UHGV virus genome: UHGV-1378817
Origin: a virus
Reading direction: 5' to 3' (one strand)
DNA length: 64,000 nucleotides
Shown here in pieces: positions 8,100 to 57,321 of this stretch. Each line of letters opens with the position of its first letter. Position 1 is the stretch's first letter. Made by a program: the position numbers and the translations under genes. The notes beneath the pieces were generated by a model. That model was not told the DNA's origin. It worked only from the letters and a program-made list of their open reading frames with translations, and made no database searches.

Positions 8100-9647
8100 T
8101 TAGATAAAACGCTTGAACATAGAAGGTGATGAGATTGATGGAATCACACAAGGAAGTGCTACCTCCTCTTTCTCCAGGAAATTAATCGCAGAAGCTACAC
8201 AGTCGGCCCAGTCGTCTTTTCTATTAAATGTTGATCTTTCCCCGTTGAATTTTTCAAGTTCAGTCAGAAATGCTTCCAGAGTATCAGGATGGAAACTGGA
8301 TTTTACAATCCTCACCATTCCTTGTTGGGCAAGATTGGCAAAAGGTGAGAACCTTGTCAGTTTAGATTTGTTGGAAGGCATTGGGTCTTCTTCAACCCTA
8401 AACCCTTCGGCGAGCAAGGATCTAGAGGAGGTTAAGAACTCACTCTTACCTGCCTGACCTGGGTCCACAGAGAAGACGATTATGCAATCATCACCATCAA
8501 ACTGCGCCTGTTTCCTGATGATCACATCTCGTTCACCAGCCTTTTTACAGAACTTGCCTTCCAGACCTGTGGAATACCTCCCGTCATCCACGTTCTCAGG
8601 ACAATAATCACCGGACAGGTAATAAAAGCCGTCGCTATCTTTACTTACCTTAACACTGGCGGTAAAGTCAGGAAACTTATTACCAGAAGTTCTCTCGGTT
8701 CCTGCCTTATCCCATGCCCTACAAGATACTGATCCAAGGGGCACTCTGTCGGCATCACGAAGGAAAGATCTTTGAAAATAGTTTGCACCCTCAGGCTTTG
8801 CAAACCAGTTACCATGGAGAAGCTGAGCTTTTTCAAGCTCGGGCAGACCTTCAAGGAAAGCAAGGTATTCTGGGTTGTCTCTTAAGCAGACAGGATTATC
8901 GAATATTGTTGCGCCTATAAACGAGAATGACAACGGTCTTGGCTTGATCTCCACACCCAGTCCGTTAACCGTGGTGTATTTCTCTATCAACTCTTCTTTA
9001 GAGTCTCCCCAGATAAATTCACCGTCGCGTCGGATAAAATATCTTTTCTTACCACATTTCTCCGGATCTGGATACCCTTCATCGTCCAACCACCATCTAA
9101 CCAGTTTGGCAAGCATGTGTTCTGAATCGGGGTTACAGCTGATAACCATTCTTGATGGATACTTTGACTGAGATCGCAGACGAGACATCAGATAGTCTAT
9201 CTGCTCCCATTCGAACTGCGTGCCCTCATCGAAGCAAACCATGGTATACTCAAGCCCTTGATGGTTAAGCTTATCTTGTACATACTCCATGTGGCAGTAT
9301 TTTACAACAGCTCCCTTTTTGCTTCTATCCCACTTGCCAGTGTTCGGATCAAACCGTGGAAAAATGAACTTATGATCCTTCTCTCTGAACTTTGGCTTAA
9401 TGTTTTCAGGCAGATCACTATAAATAGCTACTGCTTTAGGCCATAGTCCACCCTCACCTTCCAACTGTGGGGTTGTTCTTCGGAACATAACCACAGAGCT
9501 GTGGGGGTCATCAATAATTTTAAGTGGCATCAATTGCAAGAGGAACGACTTGCCAGACCCTGCGGCACCGCCGATTACCAAAATATCTGCATCGTTTTCG
9601 AGGATCATCTTCTGCTTTTCAGAACACGGTCCGTAAATCTTAGACAT
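8100..9647 (-). CDS. terL: terminase large subunit
   Basis: 515 aa; N-terminal Walker A VIGGAAGSGKS, central acidic motifs, C-terminal nuclease-like half; first gene of morphogenesis block. Confidence 0.8.
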   Translation of the reverse strand: MSKIYGPCSEKQKMILENDADILVIGGAAGSGKSFLLQLMPLKIIDDPHSSVVMFRRTTPQLEGEGGLWPKAVAIYSDLPENIKPKFREKDHKFIFPRFDPNTGKWDRSKKGAVVKYCHMEYVQDKLNHQGLEYTMVCFDEGTQFEWEQIDYLMSRLRSQSKYPSRMVISCNPDSEHMLAKLVRWWLDDEGYPDPEKCGKKRYFIRRDGEFIWGDSKEELIEKYTTVNGLGVEIKPRPLSFSFIGATIFDNPVCLRDNPEYLAFLEGLPELEKAQLLHGNWFAKPEGANYFQRSFLRDADRVPLGSVSCRAWDKAGTERTSGNKFPDFTASVKVSKDSDGFYYLSGDYCPENVDDGRYSTGLEGKFCKKAGERDVIIRKQAQFDGDDCIIVFSVDPGQAGKSEFLTSSRSLLAEGFRVEEDPMPSNKSKLTRFSPFANLAQQGMVRIVKSSFHPDTLEAFLTELEKFNGERSTFNRKDDWADCVASAINFLEKEEVALPCVIPSISSPSMFKRFI

Positions 9648-9934
9648 TAACCTCTCTCCTTTGGAAACAGTGTTCTAATATAGTCTTGCAAAATGATCAA
9701 TTTAGCTCTATCATTGCTACAAGACAGATTATTATCCCTCATAATGCCAGAATTCACTGCATCTGGAGCACCTTTCTTCAAAGGCATAGCTTTAGCAGGT
9801 GGTTTCATGGCACCTTCCGGGGGTTTAACAATCAACCTTCCTACATCCGGAGGGTCAATCTTGTATTCTCTCTCAACGCTGGTTGCACACCCACATAATA
9901 ACAAGCACACAATAAACAGTGTAGCAACTCTCAT
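9647..9934 (-). CDS. putative o-spanin (Rz1-like outer-membrane lipoprotein)
   Basis: 95 aa; signal peptide with Cys-containing lipobox-like LLLCGCATS, Pro-rich mature part; overlaps preceding gene by 4 nt. Confidence 0.5.
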   Translation of the reverse strand: MRVATLFIVCLLLCGCATSVEREYKIDPPDVGRLIVKPPEGAMKPPAKAMPLKKGAPDAVNSGIMRDNNLSCSNDRAKLIILQDYIRTLFPKERG

Positions 9935-10750: not shown

Positions 10751-10827
10751 TGGTCTCCACGGAGTGATTCGAACACTCGACCTCCTGATCCCAAATCAGG
10801 CGCTCTACCAAGCTGAGCTACGCGGAG
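10751..10827 (-). tRNA. tRNA-Pro (anticodon UGG)
   Basis: Cloverleaf read by hand: 7-bp acceptor, D arm GCTC/GAGC, anticodon arm CCTGA-TTTGGGA-TCAGG, T loop TTCGAAT, encoded CCA. Confidence 0.8.
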
Positions 10828-10838
10828 TATTTATTATT

Positions 10839-10913
10839 TGGTGGCCCTGGGTGGAATTGAACCACCGTCTGGCGATTATGAGTCGCTTGCTTGAACCTTC
10901 CAGCTACAGGGCC
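10839..10913 (-). tRNA. tRNA-Met or Ile2 (anticodon CAU)
   Basis: Acceptor GGCCCTG/CAGGGCC, anticodon arm GCGA-CTCATAA-TCGC, T loop TTCAATT, encoded CCA. Confidence 0.7.
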
Positions 10914-10914
10914 A

Positions 10915-10990
10915 TGGTGCTGATAGCAGGACTCGAACCTGCAACCTATTGATTACAAATCAATTGCACTACCAATTGTGCTACATCAGC
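10915..10990 (-). tRNA. tRNA-Thr (anticodon UGU)
   Basis: Acceptor GCTGATG, D arm GCAC/GTGC, anticodon arm ATTGA-TTTGTAA-TCAAT, T loop TTCGAGT, CCA. Confidence 0.75.
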
Positions 10991-10995
10991 AAAAA

Positions 10996-11094
10996 GGTGC
11001 TAGGTGATGGAATCGAACCACCTATGTATTCAACGACTACCTCGTCTATTTTCAGGATTAAAAATCCTCGCCCTTGCCAAAGGGCTTACCTAGC
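10996..11094 (-). tRNA. atypical long tRNA-like element (~99 nt; anticodon loop reads UUU with 4-bp stem; long extra arm)
   Basis: Acceptor GCTAGGT/ACCTAGC and canonical T arm GGTGG-TTCGATT-CCATC are clear; anticodon arm and a 30-nt variable region are non-canonical; 3' end ACC not CCA. Confidence 0.35.
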
Positions 11095-11192
11095 TCAGTA
11101 TGTTGACCATGTTGCTAGTCGGCGATGACGACTGTAACATTTGATAATCCGGTTCTGCTTCCGGCTTTCGCTTAATTACAAGGTCAACAATA

Positions 11193-11283
11193 TGGCTGAG
11201 GGTAATGGAATCGAACCATCATCGAGTCATCCTCAACGGGACGGTTTTCAAGACCGCTTGAGCACCATTGCTCCCTACCCTCA
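11193..11283 (-). tRNA. tRNA-Ser (anticodon UGA), type II
   Basis: Acceptor TGAGGGT/ACCCTCA, 3-bp D stem, anticodon arm GCGGT-CTTGAAA-ACCGT, long variable arm, T loop TTCGATT, CCA. Confidence 0.75.
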
Positions 11284-11397
11284 TTTATAAACAATACTGA
11301 TAATGACACTGATTTTCGAGCAGTTAGTGACTAGTATAAACGACGATAAATATCAATGCCATTATCTGTATGATTTATGCATTTAAAACTATAAATT

Positions 11398-11484
11398 TGG
11401 TGGGGAGTGGTGGAGTCGAACCACCCGAGTCGCAATGACAATAGATTTACAGTCTACACCGCTACCTCTACGGGATAACTCCCC
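11398..11484 (-). tRNA. tRNA-Tyr (anticodon GUA), type II
   Basis: Acceptor GGGGAGT/ACTCCCC, anticodon arm GTAGA-CTGTAAA-TCTAT, variable arm, T loop TTCGACT, CCA. Confidence 0.75.
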
Positions 11485-11488
11485 AATT

Positions 11489-11563
11489 TGGCACCCCGTA
11501 CTGGACTCGAACCAGTGTCAACGGCTTAGAAGGCCGCTGCTTTATCCACTAAGCTAACAGGGC
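11489..11563 (-). tRNA. tRNA-Arg (anticodon UCU)
   Basis: Acceptor GCCCTGT/ACGGGGT (two G-U pairs), D arm GCTT/AAGC, anticodon arm GCGGC-CTTCTAA-GCCGT, T arm ACTGG-TTCGAGT-CCAGT, CCA. Confidence 0.7.
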
Positions 11564-12009: not shown

Positions 12010-12021
12010 TATCACGTGATA
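12010..12021. promoter_or_regulatory. 12-bp perfect palindrome TATCACGTGATA just upstream of AT-hook-like gene
   Basis: Perfect dyad 12 nt upstream of the SD of the 11660-11998 gene. Confidence 0.35.
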
Positions 12022-12039
12022 GGTGGATTTTATCATAGC

Positions 12040-12260
12040 AAATACTGATTGTCAAGTTCGCCGCAGGGTGGTATTCCCTGCGACTTGCCCAGCGTCCTGG
12101 ACCAGCAAGACCCAACAAGTGGGTTTTCCAGCTATACCCATTACCGCACACAGGCTCGACCTTATTACAGGTTGGCTGGGGTCACATCGTCATGTGCTGG
12201 CTGCCCCTACCATTTTAAGTGTGGTGCACTATCAAGCCCTCTAAGGGGAACTCAGCCTTC
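12040..12260. other. GC-rich ORF-poor structured segment (candidate ncRNA)
   Basis: Local GC visibly well above flanks; several perfect hairpins (CGCAGGG-tggtatt-CCCTGCG; ACCCA-acaag-TGGGT; CACA-tcgtca-TGTG); only short multi-frame ORFs without SD. Confidence 0.3.
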
Positions 12261-12346
12261 TCCGAACCCTGTTTCAAAGCATCCGGAGATAAAGCCATCA
12301 AATTCATCTTTAAATTGGATATTCATCATAATACACGAAAACAACC

Positions 12347-12665: not shown

Positions 12666-12875
12666 TCAACAGATTCCGGCCTTATCTCGCCTGTCTGCGT
12701 ATTCTTTAATCGCAACCTCCTCGGCATGGGTGACTAAATCTTCAAAGTAACTCTCAAGCTCCTCGTCAATGTCAGGAAACCAACTCTTTTTCCTGTCAGT
12801 GTGAATCGCAGACTTGTTGAATTTATTACAGTTCTTTGCTACCGGATTGTTCATTAATCGCCCCTCAGCGTTCAT
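12666..12875 (-). CDS. hypothetical protein
   Basis: 69 aa ORF; overlaps upstream gene by 11 nt. Confidence 0.35.
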   Translation of the reverse strand: MNAEGRLMNNPVAKNCNKFNKSAIHTDRKKSWFPDIDEELESYFEDLVTHAEEVAIKEYADRRDKAGIC

Positions 12876-13443
12876 AGTAAATCTTATTTAACATTACCTC
12901 ATCCTTTGCAGAGAGAATACCGAGATATGCATCACCGAACCTACCTGCAACAACCTCTACATGATACATAACTTCGTTAATATCGTCAAGAGTGATAACT
13001 GGATGACCGTATCTCTCTGAGTATTGTCTCAGAGTGCGATGTAGGGAATCATCATCGTAGGCAGACTTTTTAATATCACAAACACGACGAATAGCCTTGA
13101 TGTCGAAAAACCCTGTGCGATACCAACCAAGAAAAAGGTTTCGTACAGTGTCAACACCTACATCAACACCGTCAAGAACCTTATCTACAAGATAGCTGTC
13201 ATCCTTTGGACCTGCTTCCTTAGTTCGAATGTAGTTGCCATCTTTTCCAGGTGACAGCTCCTTCTCATCACCAACCTGAATGCCATCATTTGGCGGTGTT
13301 AACCACTTATCCGGATGCTTACGATCACGAGCGTTAGAATGATTACGCTGGAAACCTGGCTTCCACTTGAAAGTTTTCTCCATCTGTTCTTCATTCTGAT
13401 AACGTTTTGCAATCTTTTCACGGTCATCTTTGCGTGGACTCAT
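12865..13443 (-). CDS. hypothetical protein
   Basis: 192 aa ORF with complex composition; first gene downstream of GC-rich segment. Confidence 0.45.
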   Translation of the reverse strand: MSPRKDDREKIAKRYQNEEQMEKTFKWKPGFQRNHSNARDRKHPDKWLTPPNDGIQVGDEKELSPGKDGNYIRTKEAGPKDDSYLVDKVLDGVDVGVDTVRNLFLGWYRTGFFDIKAIRRVCDIKKSAYDDDSLHRTLRQYSERYGHPVITLDDINEVMYHVEVVAGRFGDAYLGILSAKDEVMLNKIYYER

Positions 13444-13559
13444 AACTACCTCCTCTTCAAGTTATAGAAAAACTCACTGTATCGCTTTGTAACGAGCTTT
13501 TCTATCAAACTGGTGCGATTGCCTTACCTGGTATAGTTTATATAGCTGTGGAGCGATTT

Positions 13560-13810
13560 AGGTGCCTTCTTGTCCGTTTCCACACATAAACTTCATCCAA
13601 GCTCGCGCGGGAGACTCTCAACCGACTCCTTACGGCGCTGGCAAGCTTTCGTCGGTGGTCCACATCAGTGCTCGGCCTTTGGCCTGCGCTATCGCTTCGC
13701 TCCCACACATGTTAACAGACCTGCATGTATGCACTTCTGTTATTGTGTGCACCAGGGAGGCCCGGCATCTCGCCCCTCGTAGGCGAGTGCCAATGAAGGG
13801 CCGACACTAC
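13560..13810. other. GC-rich ORF-poor structured segment (candidate ncRNA)
   Basis: About 250 bp of high GC in an AT-rich genome; hairpins such as GGCC-ttt-GGCC and CGCC-cctcgtag-GCG; the two ORFs called here overlap in different frames and lack SD. Confidence 0.3.
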
Positions 13811-13947
13811 CCATAGTAAGTAATAAATTTAAAACATGGTACTTAGGATCTAGTATATTCTACATAAGTTAAGTATATGTACTTAGTACCATAAGTACTA
13901 GATCTTTTATTTTTTATTATTTAGTTATTTTAGTTATATTCTTTATG

Positions 13948-14028
13948 TGTCCGTATCACGGACAGTTAGTGTCCGTATTACGGGCAGATGTGTCCGCGTG
14001 ACGGACAGTAGTGTCCGTATCACGGACA
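13948..14028. promoter_or_regulatory. array of four 17-bp palindromic operator-like sites (TGTCCGT-N3-ACGGACA)
   Basis: Sites at 13948-13964, 13970-13986, 13991-14007, 14012-14028; 21-22 bp centre-to-centre; sites 1 and 4 identical. Confidence 0.5.
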
Positions 14029-14103
14029 GTTACTAACCTCTGTTCCATAGCGAACATAAAACATACGAATCCTTATAGTACAGATATTTAAGTTTTTACT
14101 GGT

Positions 14104-14454
14104 CTAACCAGTTGTTGACATTCGAATAACCTCTTCTGGTGGCAAAACTTTGGAAAATGTGCATCTTTTACCTCTCCCTTGTGTGGATATTTCAACCACT
14201 CCTGCACATTCTAAAGTTTTAACGCACGCTGCTGCTTTTGTTTTCTTTATCCCAACATCTGCTGCAATTTTCCTTGTGCTGGGTGTGAAGCGTGAACTTC
14301 CTCCAAGCTTATACCAGTTGTGCAGGTAGCAGTATACGATCTTGTCATACAAGTCAAGAACAACAACCTCCCCAGTTGTGTCATTCAAAACTTTTGACAT
14401 AGACAGTATTTCAAGGGGGACTTTAAGATATAGCAGCTTATCCCCATCTTTCAT
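14104..14454 (-). CDS. hypothetical protein (possible DNA-binding protein)
   Basis: 116 aa basic ORF immediately upstream (on minus strand) of the palindrome array. Confidence 0.4.
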   Translation of the reverse strand: MKDGDKLLYLKVPLEILSMSKVLNDTTGEVVVLDLYDKIVYCYLHNWYKLGGSSRFTPSTRKIAADVGIKKTKAAACVKTLECAGVVEISTQGRGKRCTFSKVLPPEEVIRMSTTG

Positions 14455-14501: not shown

Positions 14502-15056
14502 TTACTCCCCGCTGTCAATAGCAAGACTCATTGCAATACTGTATGCCTCTTCTAATGGTAAGAGTCTACCCCACACATCCCAACCGACATCAAACTGCCT
14601 GCCAAACAACTGTTGTGTGGTTCCGTGAGCATGACCGAACAGTTGTACTGATCCGTGAGGCTTTCTGTTCCACTTTGCAAACTGGTAATGGCTCATACAG
14701 ATCAAATTCTTGTTGTGGCGAAGCTCGTAATAATCTACAACCTCATGATAGAACTCTTTCATAATTCTGACAGTCGTCCTTGTGTCATGGTTGCCACGAA
14801 CAAGAATAATATGTCCGTTCAACATATTTAGAATATCTGGAAGTAAGTTGTTGATATTTTTATCAGTAGTGCACGCAATATCTCCCAAGTGGAACACAGT
14901 GTCTGCAGGTGACACAACAGAGTTCCACTCGGCGATGATTCCCGCATTCATACTGTCAAGATTGTGATCATACTGAGATCTGTGTTTTTGACATGAATCA
15001 AACTCCATGACCCGCTGGTGGAGAAAGTGTGTGTCGCTTGTTACAAAGTATTTCAT
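14502..15056 (-). CDS. calcineurin-like metallophosphoesterase (candidate 2',3'-phosphatase/phosphoesterase)
   Basis: ORF track trimmed to ATG 15056 (MKYFVTSDTHF...) with GAGGA SD; motifs SDTHF (D-x-H), LGDIA (GD), GNHD, GHAHG. Confidence 0.7.
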   Translation of the reverse strand: MKYFVTSDTHFLHQRVMEFDSCQKHRSQYDHNLDSMNAGIIAEWNSVVSPADTVFHLGDIACTTDKNINNLLPDILNMLNGHIILVRGNHDTRTTVRIMKEFYHEVVDYYELRHNKNLICMSHYQFAKWNRKPHGSVQLFGHAHGTTQQLFGRQFDVGWDVWGRLLPLEEAYSIAMSLAIDSGE

Positions 15057-15063
15057 ACATTCC

Positions 15064-15474
15064 TCATTTAAGTTTAATGCAGTTTTTAAGCTGGCGTTCC
15101 ATACGATCCACAACCCTGTCTGGAACATCATGAATGCTTTTATTACCGTGTCGGTTTTCAACCACGATTACGGTATAATTATACCCATGGCTGATTGCCA
15201 TGTCAACATATTCTTGCACATGTTTTTCTTTTGTAAACGTATTACTTACCACGATACGGTCGTATCCCATACGCATCATATCTTCTACGTTATCTTTGCA
15301 CCATTTTGCTGCAAGTGTTACTTTACTTGCATCCCAGTTGTAATTGCCGTCATCGTCGTACCAGAACATGTCGTTCTCAAAATGTGGATACAGACCTTCT
15401 AAAGATAGCGCATTTGCCAGTGTTGATTTGCCAGACCCTGGTAGACCACGCACGATATATAGCATTTTAGACAT
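15064..15474 (-). CDS. polynucleotide kinase-like P-loop kinase
   Basis: Trimmed to ATG 15474 (MSKMLYIV...) with GGAGG SD; Walker A GLPGSGKST; layout resembles T4 Pnk kinase domain (IVVSNTF..., VPDRVVDRM). Confidence 0.6.
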   Translation of the reverse strand: MSKMLYIVRGLPGSGKSTLANALSLEGLYPHFENDMFWYDDDGNYNWDASKVTLAAKWCKDNVEDMMRMGYDRIVVSNTFTKEKHVQEYVDMAISHGYNYTVIVVENRHGNKSIHDVPDRVVDRMERQLKNCIKLK

Positions 15475-15592
15475 AGTAATCCTCCGTTTTAATTTCAAAG
15501 ATAGTATACCTAACTGTTTTGTTAATTTCAAGTGTTGACACTAGGTTATTTGTGTGGCAGGATAGACTGACAAAATGACAAATGAGGAACGT

Positions 15593-16510
15593 ATGATGAA
15601 GTATTTTAATGCAGACGACCTAGTTGACAAAGGTCTTGTAACCAGTAGATATTACCCAGATCTTGGGTTAAAGATCTATAAATACGCCAGAAAAGTATTT
15701 TACAACAATTTATGGCATTTGTCCCCTCGTTTACTGGAGTGCCGAGGCATTGTTGTCGGTAATGAAGGAAATGTTGTGGCATGGCCCTTCACAAAAGTGT
15801 TTAACTTGGGAGAAAACTCCACCAACCTGCCTGACAATAAGCTTGTGACGGCGGTAGAGAAAAAGAACGGATTCCTTGGTGTGGTATCATCTCATAAAGG
15901 TGAACTATTGTTCTCAACAACCGGATCTCTTGATTCTCCATATTGTAACCTTGCAAAGGAAACCATCCAGGAGCAATGCGGTAATTTAGATCTTATCAAG
16001 AAGGTTATGGGCAATGAAAACATGACATTCATGTTTGAAATTTGTCACCCTTCAGATCCGCATATTGTTCAGGAAGATCATGGCGCATATTTGATAGGTT
16101 GCAGGTATAATGATTCTGGAATAATGCTACCAGAGGCAGCTTTAGATGGGATTGCCAAATACCTTGGTGCAAAACGTCCTCACACTGTGCGTGAAATTCC
16201 GTTCAGCTATGCAAAAGAATTGGCTGCAGAAACAAGAGGTGAAGGGTATATGATTCGTAAGCCTTACTATCCTTATGATCTGCAGCTGAAGATCAAGTCT
16301 CCATACTATCTGGCACGGAAGGCCGTAATGAGGGGTAAAGCTTGGAAGATTTGGGATGATGATATCTTTAAACGTGTTGACGAAGAGTTTTACGGCATGG
16401 TAAACTTCATTCGCAACAACTACACAGAGGATGTATGGAACTGCCTCCTGGAGCAGGAACGCCGTGAGATACTTGACTACTATTTCCACAACGAGGACTA
16501 TATGCAATGA
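15593..16510 (+). CDS. RNA ligase-like nucleotidyltransferase
   Basis: Motif I K-x-N-G (EKKNGFLG), motif IV EGYMIRK, motif V LKIKSP; start moved to ATG 15593 with GAGGA SD; divergent from kinase/phosphatase pair. Confidence 0.55.
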   Translation: MMKYFNADDLVDKGLVTSRYYPDLGLKIYKYARKVFYNNLWHLSPRLLECRGIVVGNEGNVVAWPFTKVFNLGENSTNLPDNKLVTAVEKKNGFLGVVSSHKGELLFSTTGSLDSPYCNLAKETIQEQCGNLDLIKKVMGNENMTFMFEICHPSDPHIVQEDHGAYLIGCRYNDSGIMLPEAALDGIAKYLGAKRPHTVREIPFSYAKELAAETRGEGYMIRKPYYPYDLQLKIKSPYYLARKAVMRGKAWKIWDDDIFKRVDEEFYGMVNFIRNNYTEDVWNCLLEQERREILDYYFHNEDYMQ

Positions 16511-53334: not shown

Positions 53335-53550
53335 ATGAAGATAGAAATATTTGGTGGGGCTGACAACACTCGTGGCCTGATTTACCTTGAATTTGATGAA
53401 TCATACCTGCCAGAGGTGTTAAATATAGACTCTGTTGCTGAGGCTTTGGGAGTAAACCCTAAAGAACTCCACTCTTGTGCTGAGATCGATGGTTGGGAAG
53501 AGACCATGAACATTGATTTCAGTGAAGTAGAGGACGAACCGCTGGACTGA
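53335..53550 (+). CDS. hypothetical acidic protein
   Basis: 71 aa; MKIEIFGG N-terminus; last plus-strand gene before non-coding region. Confidence 0.4.
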   Translation: MKIEIFGGADNTRGLIYLEFDESYLPEVLNIDSVAEALGVNPKELHSCAEIDGWEETMNIDFSEVEDEPLD

Positions 53551-53679
53551 CACACAATTAGCTGCCCGGCTAAAGTGCTGGAAGCGCACCTATAACACAT
53601 CTTTCAACTAAATTTCCTACCACCACAATCACTTACCTCCAACACATGACTGTTTGCTTGTTTAGTGAGCAGTCATGCC

Positions 53680-53707
53680 TTGACATTCTTGCCTATCCTG
53701 ATAAAAT
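53680..53707 (+). promoter_or_regulatory. sigma70-like promoter firing into ORF-poor region
   Basis: TTGACA, 16-nt spacer, TAAAAT; no convincing ORF downstream. Confidence 0.4.
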
Positions 53708-55021
53708 TAAGTTCTTCTCTTTTCTTTTACCGAGTAATTCGGGTTTTCTGTTCTCTTCGGTTTGAAGGGGTATGGAGATACACCTGAGTGAACAGGGTGA
53801 ACAACCGAACCATTGGCTATGGCATTAGCATGGCGAAGCGGACGGGTGACGAAAGAGGGGCCGGAGGACACCAGTCACTGCCATATGATATATGGGTGAT
53901 AACCTGAAGAGTCTGAATAAGTGTTTAAGTACCAGTCAGAGGAAAAGGTGAATGGTAGCCGAAGGGGGAGGGGGGTTTCTTGTATCTTTAATTTGTATAT
54001 TATGTATACACTTGTAAACCAATATCATCTAGATCTGTTTACCACACAAAGTGGATAGAGACAAATATTACCTATTAAACTTGAATTATTTATAGAAAAT
54101 ACCACAACACCACTTAAGTCTTTGATTTTACACACAAATCTTACAGATATTCAACCTCCATATTTAACATACCTGTAACATATTCCATACTCTACCTGCC
54201 TGATCAATTTCCCCAACTACATCCCTCATATTTCCCCTGTCTGTACTACCCTGCCCCACCGGGAGTCCCGTCATATCTGGCTTTCCAGCAAATATCACAC
54301 CCACAAATATCATGCCTGAAGAGGGTTTCATCCCATAATACCTGCCTTGCCTGAAGAGCGCTTCATACACCACGTAAATTTTTTAATTGACCTCCCCTGC
54401 CCCGCCGGAGAGGTTGGCTTTTCCCACACAGACCTGAAGAGTCAGCCAGAAATATCTGAATAGGCCCAGTTCTACCACGATTTTGACCTGACCTACAGGA
54501 GCGCTGCCAGGCGGACGAAATGGGAATACTTCTCATTCTTATAACAATTCTCAAATATCGAGGCAGTGAGGCAAATTAATAGGCCAGGCCGTTCACACAG
54601 TGGCACAACATTTGCAACCTATCTTGTGGGGGTGAATGAGAATACCTATCATTGTGAGAACCATTATCATTACGGGCAATTTAACATAATACCCATTATG
54701 CGCACCACTGGTGATACATACAGGGATTGATAACACGAGTTACAGTTTACGCATATAACAATCATATTTCTTACTATTTGTGTGGGATATAGTTAGCAGC
54801 CGATAGATTAGATATTGACCTGTGGACTTCCAACCGTCTAGACGTCTAAGCGCCCACACAACAAGGCTTATACATACATTACTGAATGTAAACAGGGCCG
54901 CAAAAATGCTACCATACCAGTTTGTAAATTTTCATGCAGCACTTGACAAAGAGGAGGAAAACTTGTCTGACACAATGTCACACAATATGACACAATAACG
55001 GCTGTTACCATTCCATATCTC

Positions 55022-55077
55022 ACTGTTTACGCATAGACTGTTTACGCCTGGATAGTTTACACCTTGACAGTTTACAC
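55022..55077. repeat. four direct iteron-like repeats with exact 15-bp periodicity (ACTGTTTACGC x2, ATAGTTTACAC, ACAGTTTACAC)
   Basis: Repeat starts at 55022, 55037, 55052, 55067; further copies of the core at 54742-54752 and 55493-55502. Confidence 0.7.
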
Positions 55078-55150
55078 AGATATGATAAGCCATGACATTC
55101 GTTTGCATGAAAACAATTAGCAAGTTAACAATTAACAAGTTAATAATATA

Positions 55151-57159: not shown

Positions 57160-57321
57160 AATGTTTTCCTCTCTTCTGGTTGTTGTGTGGGCACTTTTGC
57201 CCCTTCAAGATAAATGATACCCCCACCACCTGGCAGATGTCAACGGTTTTTATAGTTTTTTATATAACAGGCACCCCCGGTGATTGTCTCCCCCCGTCGC
57301 CAGGTGCCTGCCGTGAAACAA

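What the first reader, a model, noticed from the sequence alone, without database searches (positions are those of the whole stretch)
13560..13810. GC-rich, ORF-poor, hairpin-dense segment between minus-strand genes: candidate structured ncRNA
About 250 bp of markedly elevated GC interrupt an AT-rich genome. The only ORFs are two overlapping plus-strand frames with no SD and odd composition. The segment is rich in local dyads (GGCC-ttt-GGCC, CGCC-cctcgtag-GCG, GAGACTC...GACTCC). It lies immediately downstream (minus-strand sense) of an AT-rich region and an array of four palindromic sites, as if under regulated transcription.
Basis: seen in the sequence. Interest (0 to 1): 0.62.

Follow-up and report, generated by a model that had tools for sequence, protein, structure and literature searches.

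The report
Hairpin-cassette array shared with phage-like plasmids
This GC-rich 250-base stretch of an rV5-like coliphage is a conserved non-coding string of hairpin modules punctuated by the octamer CCCACACA. The same kind of string, with shuffled modules, lies beside the replication origin of small phage-like E. coli plasmids, which points to an undescribed structured RNA (or single-stranded DNA signal) linking the phage to probable satellites.

Summary
Window 13560-13810 is a GC peak (0.60 against about 0.42) with no credible gene, and it is conserved in all 119 Vequintavirus (rV5-like) records. No Rfam, tRNA, Pfam or PHROG match was found.

It is a string of modules, read on the + strand: leader, module A, CCACA, module B', CCCACACA, hairpin H, module G.

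Module A, and in some members module G, recurs in a family of about 13.7-kb circular E. coli elements. These carry capsid and tail genes, a Rep-like gene and iterons. Their arrays combine cassettes (A/A', B, C, D, E, F, G or T) in at least nine different orders. Each cassette is followed by CCCACACA, and most arrays end in a + strand intrinsic terminator.

Ten base pairs show compensatory double changes, against at most one in shifted controls. The structure is therefore under selection.

The octamer is enriched 5-fold or more in the phage and more than 20-fold in the plasmids.

My best reading is a + strand multi-hairpin RNA, antisense to the flanking genes, that displays single-stranded CA-rich linkers. 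It would work as a multivalent platform or sponge. This is inferred, not shown.

A single-stranded or duplex DNA signal for replication, packaging or recombination remains a serious rival. The function is unproven and I found no published description.

The parts
13545..13602 (+). Leader. It holds GATTTAGGTGCCTT (13555-13568), which is shared with the plasmid leaders as ATTTAGGGGGCT, and a first degenerate linker TTCCACACA (13578-13586).
   Evidence: Alignments, motif search, sequence. A possible extended -10, TGGTATAGT at 13529-13537, was read by eye. It is not conserved in two phage copies and the scan did not find it.
13603..13659 (+). Module A. Helix P1 pairs 13605-13613 with 13629-13638. 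Helix P2 pairs 13619-13626 with 13651-13658. The two helices are interleaved, so they are compatible with a pseudoknot. The loop CTCCTTNCGGCGCTGGCAAGCTTTCG is invariant.
   Evidence: 84-85% identical to the plasmid copies. 93% of cells are paired, 3 pairs in P2 changed on both sides, and slid controls gave 0. The loop is invariant in 13 distinct sequences.
13660..13664 (+). Linker CCACA after module A. It varies among the phages: CCCACA, CCCGCA, TCAACA.
13665..13701 (+). Module B'. It contains the GGCC-TTT-GGCC hairpin inside AGTGC/GCGCT, followed by GCG-CTAT-CGC. The second hairpin resembles GTGC-TATC-GCAC in plasmid module B''.
   Evidence: Folds. Comparison with L049/L050.
13702..13709 (+). 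Linker octamer CCCACACA.
   Evidence: 9 copies in the window against 1.88 expected, and 0 of 100 shuffles reach 9. The same octamer punctuates all plasmid arrays.
13710..13755 (+). Module H. This is a long hairpin in which CACACA pairs with TGTGTG, enclosing TAACAG/CTGTTA and TGCA/TGCA.
   Evidence: Fold. The 18-nt deletion in rV5 and Murica leaves a perfect CACACATG/CATGTGTG hairpin.
13756..13808 (+). Module G. This is a long hairpin made of GGCCC/GGGCC, GGCA/TGCC and CTCGCC/GGCGAG.
   Evidence: 87% identical to plasmid L003, with 2 compensatory double changes and 99% of cells paired. It is 53/53 identical to the G module of plasmid L051.
13809..13946 (.). AT-rich spacer with overlapping inverted repeats (13821-13845 with 13892-13916). 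On the + strand it ends in a T-run.
13947..14032 (.). Four 21-22-bp palindromic sites (GTGTCCGTATCACGGACAG). They are probably the binding sites of the adjacent winged-helix protein.
   Evidence: They are annotated as a repeat_region in phages pangalan and Alma. They are replaced together with the protein in the divergent phage.
14104..14454 (-). A 116-aa winged-helix (HTH_36) protein. PHROGs labels the family 'replication initiation protein', and most GenBank records call it a transcriptional regulator.
   Evidence: It is found in the same 119 records as the array.
12865..13443 (-). A 192-aa ORF of unknown function that diverges from the array. It is specific to the genus.

Best explanation
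The segment is the phage copy of an undescribed family of modular non-coding elements. Each element is a string of independently folding hairpin cassettes separated by the C/A-only linker CCCACACA.

I think the functional form is most likely a + strand RNA of roughly 250-300 nt, antisense to the flanking genes.

The proposed mechanism is as follows. The hairpins act as insulating spacers and need only fold, so they can be swapped, lost or compensated. The conserved parts are the single-stranded CA linkers and the invariant loop of module A. These are displayed several times per molecule as a multivalent binding platform (a sponge or decoy) for a factor that also reads the same octamer elsewhere in the phage, for example in some intergenic leaders.

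The roughly 13.7-kb phage-like plasmids, which are probable satellites, carry the helper's module A, and sometimes G, at the head and tail of their own arrays. They would therefore tap or titrate the same factor.

What is shown: conservation, modularity, the shared modules, selection on the hairpins, and enrichment of the octamer.

What is inferred: transcription, the strand, the RNA nature, the sponge mechanism, and the helper-satellite relationship.
For: Conservation and lack of a gene:
- Conserved in 119 of 119 Vequintavirus records.
- No protein-family match, and the ORFs are broken in divergent copies.

Shared modules and modularity:
- Homologous modules occur only on small plasmids among 5426 E. 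coli genomes. There were 4 genomes and 0 chromosomal places.
- More copies were found in metagenomes and assemblies.
- 12 plasmid loci show at least nine cassette orders: ABCFG, ABFG, C'ABT, ABFT, ABCT, ABDET, ABCDET, ABCDT and A'B''DET.

Selection on structure:
- Compensatory double changes number 3 in module A, 2 in module G and 5 in the C/E/C' units. 93-99% of cells are paired and slid controls gave at most 1.
- A structure-preserving 18-nt deletion is seen in module H.

Strand:
- A + strand intrinsic terminator (11-bp stem plus TTTCATTT) closes the array in both plasmid lineages.
- The promoter of the - strand operon lies downstream of the array.
- In the module A helices there are 22 G.U-type cells against 1 A.C-type cell.
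- Linkers are predicted to be unpaired in + sense (0.42-0.82, against 0.32-0.41 for the rest) but paired in - sense (0.15-0.30). This holds in all 15 arrays.

Octamer:
- 9 copies against 1.9 expected in the window.
- 19 copies against about 3 expected in the APECc02 genome.
- 9-13 copies per plasmid.
- Six of the nine window copies lie in non-coding DNA. One is 27 nt upstream of a start codon and follows a sigma-70-like promoter.

Precedent: an rV5-like phage uses an expandable non-coding RNA array as a molecular mimic (PMC3475682).
Against: - No transcript data exist.
- The scan finds no promoter or terminator on either strand of the phage copy.
- G-ended arrays lack a canonical terminator.
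- The candidate phage -10 is lost in two phage copies.
- Fold z-scores are modest and equal on both strands.
- The compensatory changes in A and G separate just two lineages, so they represent few independent events.
- Many loops are C-GNA-G triloops. From my own knowledge these are hallmarks of very stable DNA mini-hairpins rather than RNA.
- TTTGTGGG, which is complementary to the last linker, is conserved beyond the terminator.
- The octamer is also enriched inside coding DNA on both strands, and its orientation flips across the plasmid iterons. This looks like a DNA-level signal.
- No binding factor is identified.
- The linker after module A is not strictly conserved among the phages.
Confidence: 0.4

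Rival explanations
1. It is a DNA-level cis signal. The array and the octamer act in single-stranded or duplex DNA near a replicon origin. Possible roles are single-strand initiation (priming) hairpins, a packaging (pac-like) site that lets the 13.7-kb elements be packaged by the helper, or a polar Chi/KOPS-like octamer read by a phage enzyme. In this view the RNA is irrelevant.
For: - The array sits next to origin-like repeats in both contexts. In the phage these are the AT-rich spacer, four palindromes and a Rep-like winged-helix gene. In the plasmids they are the iterons and a Rep-like gene.
- The octamer is enriched in coding and non-coding DNA on both strands.
- In plasmid L003 the copies left of the iterons are all in + orientation (11038, 12479, 12529, 12627). 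Those to the right are all in - orientation (13627, 128, 287, 2263, 2767, 4967).
- C-GNA-G triloops are frequent.
- Apart from three coding matches and a 24-nt segment, modules A and G are the only nucleotide-level matches between plasmid and window. This is what a shared cis site would look like.
- Element size is tightly constrained at 13.4-14.4 kb.
- TGTGGG beyond the terminator pairs with the last linker.
Against: - A duplex protein-binding site cluster would not need compensatory hairpin changes between the sites.
- A canonical + strand terminator at the array end is unexplained.
- G.U-type juxtapositions are tolerated and kept.
- Cassettes are individually dispensable.
- No known ssi or pac consensus was recognised, although that comparison was from memory only.
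- The plasmid copies are homologous positions, so the orientation pattern amounts to few independent observations.
Confidence: 0.3
2. It is an anti-defence RNA cassette array. The transcript is cut at the ACA-rich linkers by a host or phage endoribonuclease into unit hairpin RNAs. Each unit then acts as a decoy or antitoxin mimic against a different host system, as pseudo-ToxI does in the rV5-like phage PhiTE.
For: - Cassette gain and loss between near-identical plasmid backbones resembles fast-evolving counter-defence loci.
- There is a precedent in PMC3475682.
- The neighbourhood holds RNA-repair genes (RNA ligase, polynucleotide kinase, phosphoesterase) and a tRNA cluster.
- Module A is compatible with a pseudoknot.
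Against: - The units are not tandem near-identical repeats.
- No ToxN/AbiQ-like toxin, and no anticodon-loop or T-loop mimicry, was seen.
- One shared cleavage motif with many different units does not fit toxin-specific processing.
- Neither processing nor targets are shown.
Confidence: 0.12
3. A - strand structured leader or small RNA is transcribed from a regulated promoter in the AT-rich region, controlled by the four palindromic operators, and runs into the 192-aa gene.
For: - All flanking genes are on the - strand.
- The - strand MFE is slightly lower: -104.5 against -98.0 kcal/mol.
- The operators and AT-rich region lie upstream in that sense.
Against: - No - strand promoter was found.
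- In the plasmids the homologous array is not upstream of any - strand gene, and that operon's promoter lies beyond it.
- The terminator orientation, the wobble asymmetry and the linker accessibility all favour the + strand.
- The operators and their protein are swapped in a divergent phage without any change to the array.
Confidence: 0.1
4. It codes for one or more small proteins, for example the 56-aa rV5 ORF78 on the - strand or the 84-aa + strand frame.
For: - Several records annotate these ORFs.
- The 56-aa frame is open in 8 of 10 aligned phages.
Against: - No Pfam or PHROG family matches.
- The start codon lies inside the linker octamer, and no Shine-Dalgarno sequence is seen.
- There is a stop in the IMG/VR copy and frameshifts in Alma and ECML-10.
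- The plasmid homologues keep the modules but not the frames.
- The substitutions are compensatory in helices.
Confidence: 0.03

Closest known systems
CsrB/CsrC and RsmX/Y/Z (also CrcZ) protein-sponge sRNAs
   Same: These are multi-hairpin RNAs of 100-400 nt. A short motif is repeated many times in accessible positions, the copy number varies between relatives, and the RNA ends in an intrinsic terminator. The same motif also occurs in mRNA leaders.
   Different: The motif here is CCCACACA in the linkers, not GGA in loops or A-rich CA motifs. No CsrA/Hfq-type partner is known for it. Rfam models do not match. The element is carried by a virulent phage and by plasmids. The mechanism is untested.
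Type III antitoxin arrays (ToxI) and the pseudo-ToxI locus of the rV5-like phage PhiTE (PMC3475682)
   Same: It is a non-coding, repeat-organised RNA locus in an rV5-like phage. It evolves by unit gain and loss and by recombination with a plasmid-borne counterpart. Its units are compatible with a pseudoknot.
   Different: ToxI units are near-identical 36-nt tandem repeats next to a toxN gene. Here the units differ in sequence and length (31-90 nt), only the 8-nt linker repeats, and no toxin gene is adjacent.
Immunity RNAs of satellite P4 (CI RNA) and of P1/P7 (C4 RNA)
   Same: They are small structured RNAs of satellites or phage-plasmids, made from a non-coding leader, with short sequence repeats in the same transcript that can pair with them.
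   Different: They are single ~70-nt RNAs with defined complementary target boxes upstream of an operon. Here no ORF follows the array, no C4 model match was found, and no antisense target of 12 nt or more was found.
Single-strand initiation (ssi) signals near plasmid and phage origins (G4-type, PriA-type, RSF1010 ssiA/B)
   Same: They are GC-rich hairpin clusters beside an iteron origin. They function on one strand and tolerate compensatory change.
   Different: They are usually one to three hairpins without a repeated punctuating octamer, and they are not followed by a terminator.
REP/BIME elements, integron attC arrays and CRISPR arrays (similar in architecture only)
   Same: They have a cassette-like organisation in which a short conserved unit alternates with variable units, and array composition differs between close relatives.
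   Different: There is no match on E. coli chromosomes, no integrase, RAYT or cas genes nearby, and the conserved unit is only 8-11 nt.

Membership tests
Any Rfam 15 family (including C4 antisense RNA, 6S, tmRNA, group I intron, ROOL/GOLLD, HEARO, YrlA) | A covariance-model score at or above the family's gathering threshold | tested here: not met
   At the gathering threshold the window gave only 6 tRNA matches, at 10754-11563. An E-value scan of 13300-14100 gave only far-sub-threshold hits, for example rli43 at 23.9 bits against a threshold of 100. The longest plasmid array gave nothing meaningful.
tRNA / tmRNA | A cloverleaf or tmRNA fold detected by ARAGORN | tested here: not met
   There are 7 tRNA genes at 10751-11563 and none in 13500-13850.
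Type III toxin-antitoxin antitoxin array (ToxI-like) | Tandem near-identical repeats of about 34-45 nt | tested here: not met
   The modules differ in sequence and length, and only the 5-11-nt linker repeats.
Type III toxin-antitoxin antitoxin array (ToxI-like) | An adjacent ToxN/AbiQ-family endoribonuclease gene | tested here: not met
   The neighbouring genes are a winged-helix HTH_36 protein, a phosphoesterase, a P-loop kinase and ORFs of unknown function. In the plasmids they are a Rep-like gene and small ORFs.
Csr/Rsm-type sponge sRNA | Many copies of a short protein-binding motif exposed in single-stranded positions of a multi-hairpin RNA | tested here: inconclusive
   There are 2-6 CCCACACA-type linkers per array. 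They are predicted to be unpaired in + sense in 15 of 15 arrays. The motif is not GGA, and no binding was tested.
Csr/Rsm-type sponge sRNA | An independent transcription unit with a promoter and an intrinsic terminator | tested here: inconclusive
   A terminator is present in T-ended plasmid arrays. There is only a weak + strand promoter about 300 nt upstream in the plasmids. Neither was found in the phage copy.
Csr/Rsm-type sponge sRNA | A cognate RNA-binding protein that is titrated by the RNA | not testable with these tools
   No candidate was identified. Proteins shared by phage and plasmids are an 83-aa protein with no family match, a neck protein and a Dit-like protein.
Iteron-type replicon accessory element (ssi or origin component) | Location beside Rep-binding repeats and a Rep gene | tested here: met
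   In the plasmids the array lies about 100-500 bp from iterons that differ between members along with Rep. In the phage it lies beside an AT-rich spacer, 4 palindromes and a PHROG 'replication initiation' winged-helix gene.
Iteron-type replicon accessory element (ssi or origin component) | Supports priming or replication on single-stranded DNA | not testable with these tools
   This needs an in vitro primase or primosome assay, or origin mapping.
Phage pac site shared with a satellite | Terminase cleavage or packaging initiation at the site, with the satellite dependent on it | not testable with these tools
   There is only indirect evidence. Modules A and G are among the few nucleotide-level matches between phage and plasmid. 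rV5-like phages are reported to be circularly permuted (PMC3475682).
Protein-coding gene | A conserved open frame with protein-family support | tested here: not met
Host-derived sequence (captured E. coli chromosomal DNA, REP/BIME) | Similarity to E. coli chromosomes | tested here: not met
   There were 0 chromosomal places in 5426 complete genomes. All 6 places are on small plasmids.

The most novel reading that the evidence does not exclude
rV5-like virulent phages and a family of roughly 13.7-kb capsid- and tail-gene-bearing plasmids form a helper-satellite pair that communicates through a new class of cassette-shuffling structured RNA. The satellite heads its array with a copy of the helper's module A, and sometimes ends it with G, exchanged by recombination. 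It displays multiple CCCACACA linkers to capture or titrate a helper (or host) factor that reads this octamer across the phage genome. This would be an RNA-mimicry route to hijacking a virulent myovirus.
Probability: 0.25. Interest if true: 0.85.

Novelty: new variant of a known kind. Interest (0 to 1): 0.66.

Why it matters
If it is transcribed, this would be an undescribed family of phage and plasmid non-coding RNAs with an unusual organisation. Interchangeable hairpin cassettes are strung on a fixed octamer, and the family is not in Rfam.

It also exposes a coherent, apparently unstudied family of about 13.7-kb E. coli elements. These carry capsid, neck, Dit-like and tape-measure genes and share non-coding modules with rV5-like phages. 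They are candidate satellites of a virulent myovirus group that is used in phage therapy and biocontrol.

The strongly over-represented CCCACACA octamer, in the phage and still more in the plasmids, is a concrete handle for finding a new sequence-specific factor. That factor could be RNA-binding or DNA-binding, and could act in regulation, replication, packaging or recombination.

Each of these points can be tested directly with strand-specific RNA-seq, pull-downs and transduction assays.

Tried and rejected
Database searches that found nothing useful:
- Rfam at gathering and E-value thresholds, on the phage segment, the longest plasmid array and the 53.5-55 kb region, gave no family.
- ARAGORN found no tRNA or tmRNA in the segment.
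- Pfam and PHROGs gave nothing for the five local ORFs.
- Blastn and tblastn for more distant phage homologues of the array, the 192-aa ORF and the winged-helix protein found all three confined to the same 119 Vequintavirus records. There is therefore no deep phylogeny for covariation.
- IMG/VR scans returned only one rV5-like contig.
- A genome-contig scan with a 19-mer gave 19 hits in unrelated GC-rich genomes. I judged these to be chance matches.
- Literature searches for rV5 or Vequintavirus non-coding RNA, satellites or transcriptomes found nothing relevant except PhiTE pseudo-ToxI.

Ideas tested and dropped:
- An antisense target search with 10-mers of modules A and G against the phage and plasmids gave only chance-level 10-11-nt matches.
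- The linkers are not DnaA boxes. They lack the T residues of TTATCCACA.
- TGGCA-N-GC in module A is not a sigma-54 promoter. The GC element is absent from the phage copies.
- The modules are not RNase P-type minihelices ending in NCCA. The CCA after module A is not conserved among the phages, and the registers differ in other modules.
- No anticodon-loop or T-loop mimicry was seen, because there are no 7-nt loops of the right form.
- The 'FtsK' annotation of a nearby 87-aa ORF is not supported by Pfam.
- MFE comparison of the two strands was not informative.

Full report
**What the window is.** The window is 97-99% identical to Escherichia phage APECc02, a virulent rV5-like myovirus of the genus Vequintavirus. 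The region around the finding, read on the - strand, runs as follows:
- RNA ligase (on the + strand), a P-loop polynucleotide-kinase-like ATPase and a phosphoesterase.
- A 116-aa winged-helix protein at 14104-14454.
- Four palindromic sites, then an AT-rich spacer, then the GC-rich segment.
- A 192-aa ORF at 12865-13443 and two small ORFs.
- A second GC-rich gap, a 113-aa ORF, and seven tRNA genes.

**Check of the observation.**
- GC rises to 0.525-0.595 in 13500-13799, against 0.32-0.43 in the flanks.
- Both strands fold about two standard deviations better than dinucleotide shuffles.
- The four 21-22-bp palindromes at 13947-14032 are confirmed.
- Short ORFs exist on both strands, and some records annotate them.
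- None of these ORFs matches Pfam or PHROGs.
- The frames are interrupted in the most divergent copies.
- The segment is present at 88-99.7% identity in every one of 119 Vequintavirus records and in no other phage record.
- No Rfam family matches, at gathering or at permissive thresholds.

**The key lead.** Among 5426 complete E. coli genomes, the segment matches only four small plasmids and no chromosome.
- These plasmids are 13.2-13.7-kb circles. One is assembled as a 39.6-kb trimer.
- They carry a major capsid protein (PHROG 29), a Dit-like tail protein, a neck or tail-completion protein, a 706-aa tape-measure protein, small HTH proteins, a Rep-like 285-303-aa protein and iterons.
- No terminase or portal gene is annotated on them.
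- Three of their proteins resemble rV5-type tail proteins at 25-50% identity, and an 83-aa protein is 68% identical to a window ORF.
- A protein search with the Rep-like protein found 48 clusters. All named members are from E. coli, and the contigs are almost always 13.4-14.4 kb.
- I found no paper describing these elements. That they are satellites of rV5-like phages is my inference.

**Anatomy.** I aligned the phage segment with 12 plasmid loci and with metagenome copies. Read on the window's + strand, the alignment shows a modular array.
- The phage has: a leader (13545-13602); module A (13603-13659); CCACA; module B' (13665-13701); CCCACACA (13702-13709); hairpin H (13710-13755); and module G (13756-13808).
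- The plasmids start with the same module A, or with an alternative A' in a divergent lineage.
- They continue with cassettes B/B'', C, D, E and F in different combinations. Each cassette is followed by CCCACACA, sometimes extended by CA.
- They end either in G or in T. T is a canonical intrinsic terminator with an 11-bp stem followed by TTTCATTT.
- At least nine cassette orders occur on otherwise very similar backbones.
- One plasmid's G module is 53/53 identical to the phage's, while others carry a compensated variant. This indicates recent exchange between phage and plasmids.

**Is the structure selected?**
- In module A, helix P2 changes from CCGAC/GTCGG in the phages to CTGCC/GGCAG in the plasmids. 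Three pairs changed on both sides, 93% of cells are paired, and none appears in six slid controls.
- Helix P1 is interleaved with P2, which is compatible with a pseudoknot. It shows only one-sided change.
- Module G has two double changes and 99% pairing.
- The three-hairpin units C, E and C' have five double changes and 98% pairing.
- The 18-nt deletion in rV5 and Murica converts hairpin H into a shorter perfect hairpin.
- A caveat: the changes in A and G separate two lineages, so the number of independent events is small.
- In contrast to the helices, the 26-nt loop of module A (CTCCTTNCGGCGCTGGCAAGCTTTCG) is invariant in all copies. That implies sequence-specific recognition.

**Which strand, and RNA or DNA?** The + strand is favoured for four reasons:
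- The terminator that closes the plasmid arrays is on the + strand, in both plasmid lineages.
- The strong - strand promoter of the plasmid operon lies beyond the array, so the array is not its leader.
- The module A helices hold 22 G.U-type cells against one A.C-type cell.
- In partition-function folds of 15 arrays, the C/A-only linkers are mostly unpaired in + sense (0.42-0.82) but paired in - sense (0.15-0.30).

Against a simple RNA gene:
- No promoter or terminator is detected in the phage copy.
- G-ended arrays lack a canonical terminator.
- C-GNA-G triloops are common. By my own knowledge these are typical of stable DNA mini-hairpins.
- A TTTGTGGG complementary to the last linker is conserved beyond the terminator.

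**The octamer.**
- CCCACACA occurs 9 times in the window against 1.9 expected, and none of 100 shuffles reaches 9.
- It occurs 19 times in the APECc02 genome, against about 3 expected from base composition.
- It occurs 9-13 times in each 13.7-kb plasmid.
- Six of the nine window copies lie in the small non-coding fraction. Three are in the 1.4-kb ORF-poor region at 53.5-54.9 kb. One lies between a sigma-70-like promoter and a start codon at 57184.
- Coding copies on both strands are also in excess.
- In the plasmids the orientation switches across the iteron region.
- So the octamer is clearly a functional word, but I cannot tell whether it is read in RNA or in DNA.

**Context.**
- The winged-helix protein matches HTH_36 and PHROG 'replication initiation protein' families.
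- The plasmid Rep-like protein also shows HTH_36 or a weak Rep similarity.
- In both contexts the array, in + sense, points toward origin-like repeats.
- In the divergent IMG/VR phage contig the winged-helix gene is only 27% identical and its palindromes are replaced by different ones, yet the array is retained.
- The array therefore does not depend on that protein's DNA specificity.

**Best explanation and rivals.**
- My best explanation is a + strand multi-hairpin RNA. Its hairpins are exchangeable spacers, and its conserved single-stranded linkers plus the module A loop form a multivalent platform (a sponge or decoy). The plasmids share it because they exploit the same factor. Confidence is about 0.4.
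- The main rival, at about 0.3, is a DNA-level signal for replication priming, packaging or recombination polarity.
- An anti-defence cassette array processed at the ACA-rich linkers, by analogy with PhiTE pseudo-ToxI (PMC3475682), is at about 0.12.
- Protein coding is unlikely.

**Comparison with known systems.** The element does not meet the defining features of any family I could test. These were the Rfam families, tRNA/tmRNA, type III antitoxin arrays, host REP/BIME elements and protein-coding genes. In architecture it resembles Csr/Rsm sponge RNAs most closely, and ssi clusters in its position. I rate it a new variant of a known kind, namely a phage or plasmid structured non-coding element. 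It has an unusual cassette organisation and an unexpected link between a virulent phage and candidate satellite plasmids.

Noticed in passing
window 12020-12310 (core 12135-12179, - strand): This is a second GC-rich, ORF-free gap of about 250 nt between small - strand ORFs. Its 45-nt core (GCCAACCTGTAATAAGGTCGAGCC...GTGCGGTAATGGGTA) is 84-96% identical to an intergenic stretch in about 880 T4-like and other myophage records. In phage AR1 that stretch lies between ip4 and vs.8. It forms a hairpin within a hairpin.
   Followed up: partly
window 53550-54930: This is a 1.4-kb ORF-poor region at the turning point of cumulative GC skew. It has a sigma-70-like TTGACA...GATAAAAT promoter at 53682-53710, followed by a purine-rich stretch of about 270 nt that may be another non-coding RNA. 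It also holds five CCTGAAGAG repeats, GTTTACGC-like repeats at 54740-55080 and three CCCACACA copies. One of these, CCCACACAGACCTGAAGAGTC, resembles the plasmid T module. There is no Rfam match.
   Followed up: partly
loci L003-L007, L018, L020, L047-L051 (E. coli plasmids and contigs): This is a coherent family of 13.4-14.4-kb circular elements. They carry capsid, Dit-like, neck and tape-measure genes, a Rep-like HTH_36 protein and member-specific iterons, but no terminase or portal is seen. They were found in 4 of 5426 complete E. coli genomes and form 48 Rep clusters. They are candidate satellites of rV5-like phages, and no literature was found.
   Followed up: partly
whole window; APECc02 genome (L043-L045); plasmids: The octamer CCCACACA/TGTGTGGG is strongly over-represented. 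There are 9 copies against 1.9 expected in the window, 19 against about 3 in APECc02, and 9-13 per 13.7-kb plasmid. In plasmid L003 all copies left of the iterons are in one orientation and all copies to the right are in the other.
   Followed up: partly
L009 (IMG/VR contig) compared with window 13947-14454: In the most divergent rV5-like contig the winged-helix gene is only 27% identical. The four GTGTCCGTATCACGGACAG palindromes are replaced by different palindromes (TGATACAAATATGTATCA-like). This looks like a swap of a matched regulator and operator (or Rep and site) pair, while the neighbouring array and genes are kept.
   Followed up: partly
window 10996-11094 (- strand): This is a 99-nt tRNA-like gene inside the tRNA cluster. 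ARAGORN calls it with a four-base anticodon (atcc), and the Rfam tRNA score is low at 35.5 bits. Different records annotate it as tRNA-Lys or tRNA-OTHER.
   Followed up: no
window 14502-16510: This is an RNA-repair-like gene set: an RNA ligase (+ strand, 15575-16510), a P-loop polynucleotide-kinase-like ATPase (15064-15474, - strand) and a metallophosphoesterase (14502-15056, - strand). It lies next to the array and about 3 kb from the tRNA cluster.
   Followed up: no
window 54536-54559 (- strand) and L003 519-542: A 24-nt segment, GATATTTGAGAATTGTTA(T/G)AAGAA, is shared at 23/24 identity between the phage's large non-coding region and the plasmids. The function is unknown.
   Followed up: no
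APECc02 79184-81623 (corresponds to window about 8100-9650): In the RefSeq annotation the large terminase subunit is given as two CDSs, separated by an endonuclease VII gene. This suggests an intervening mobile element or a split gene.
   Followed up: no
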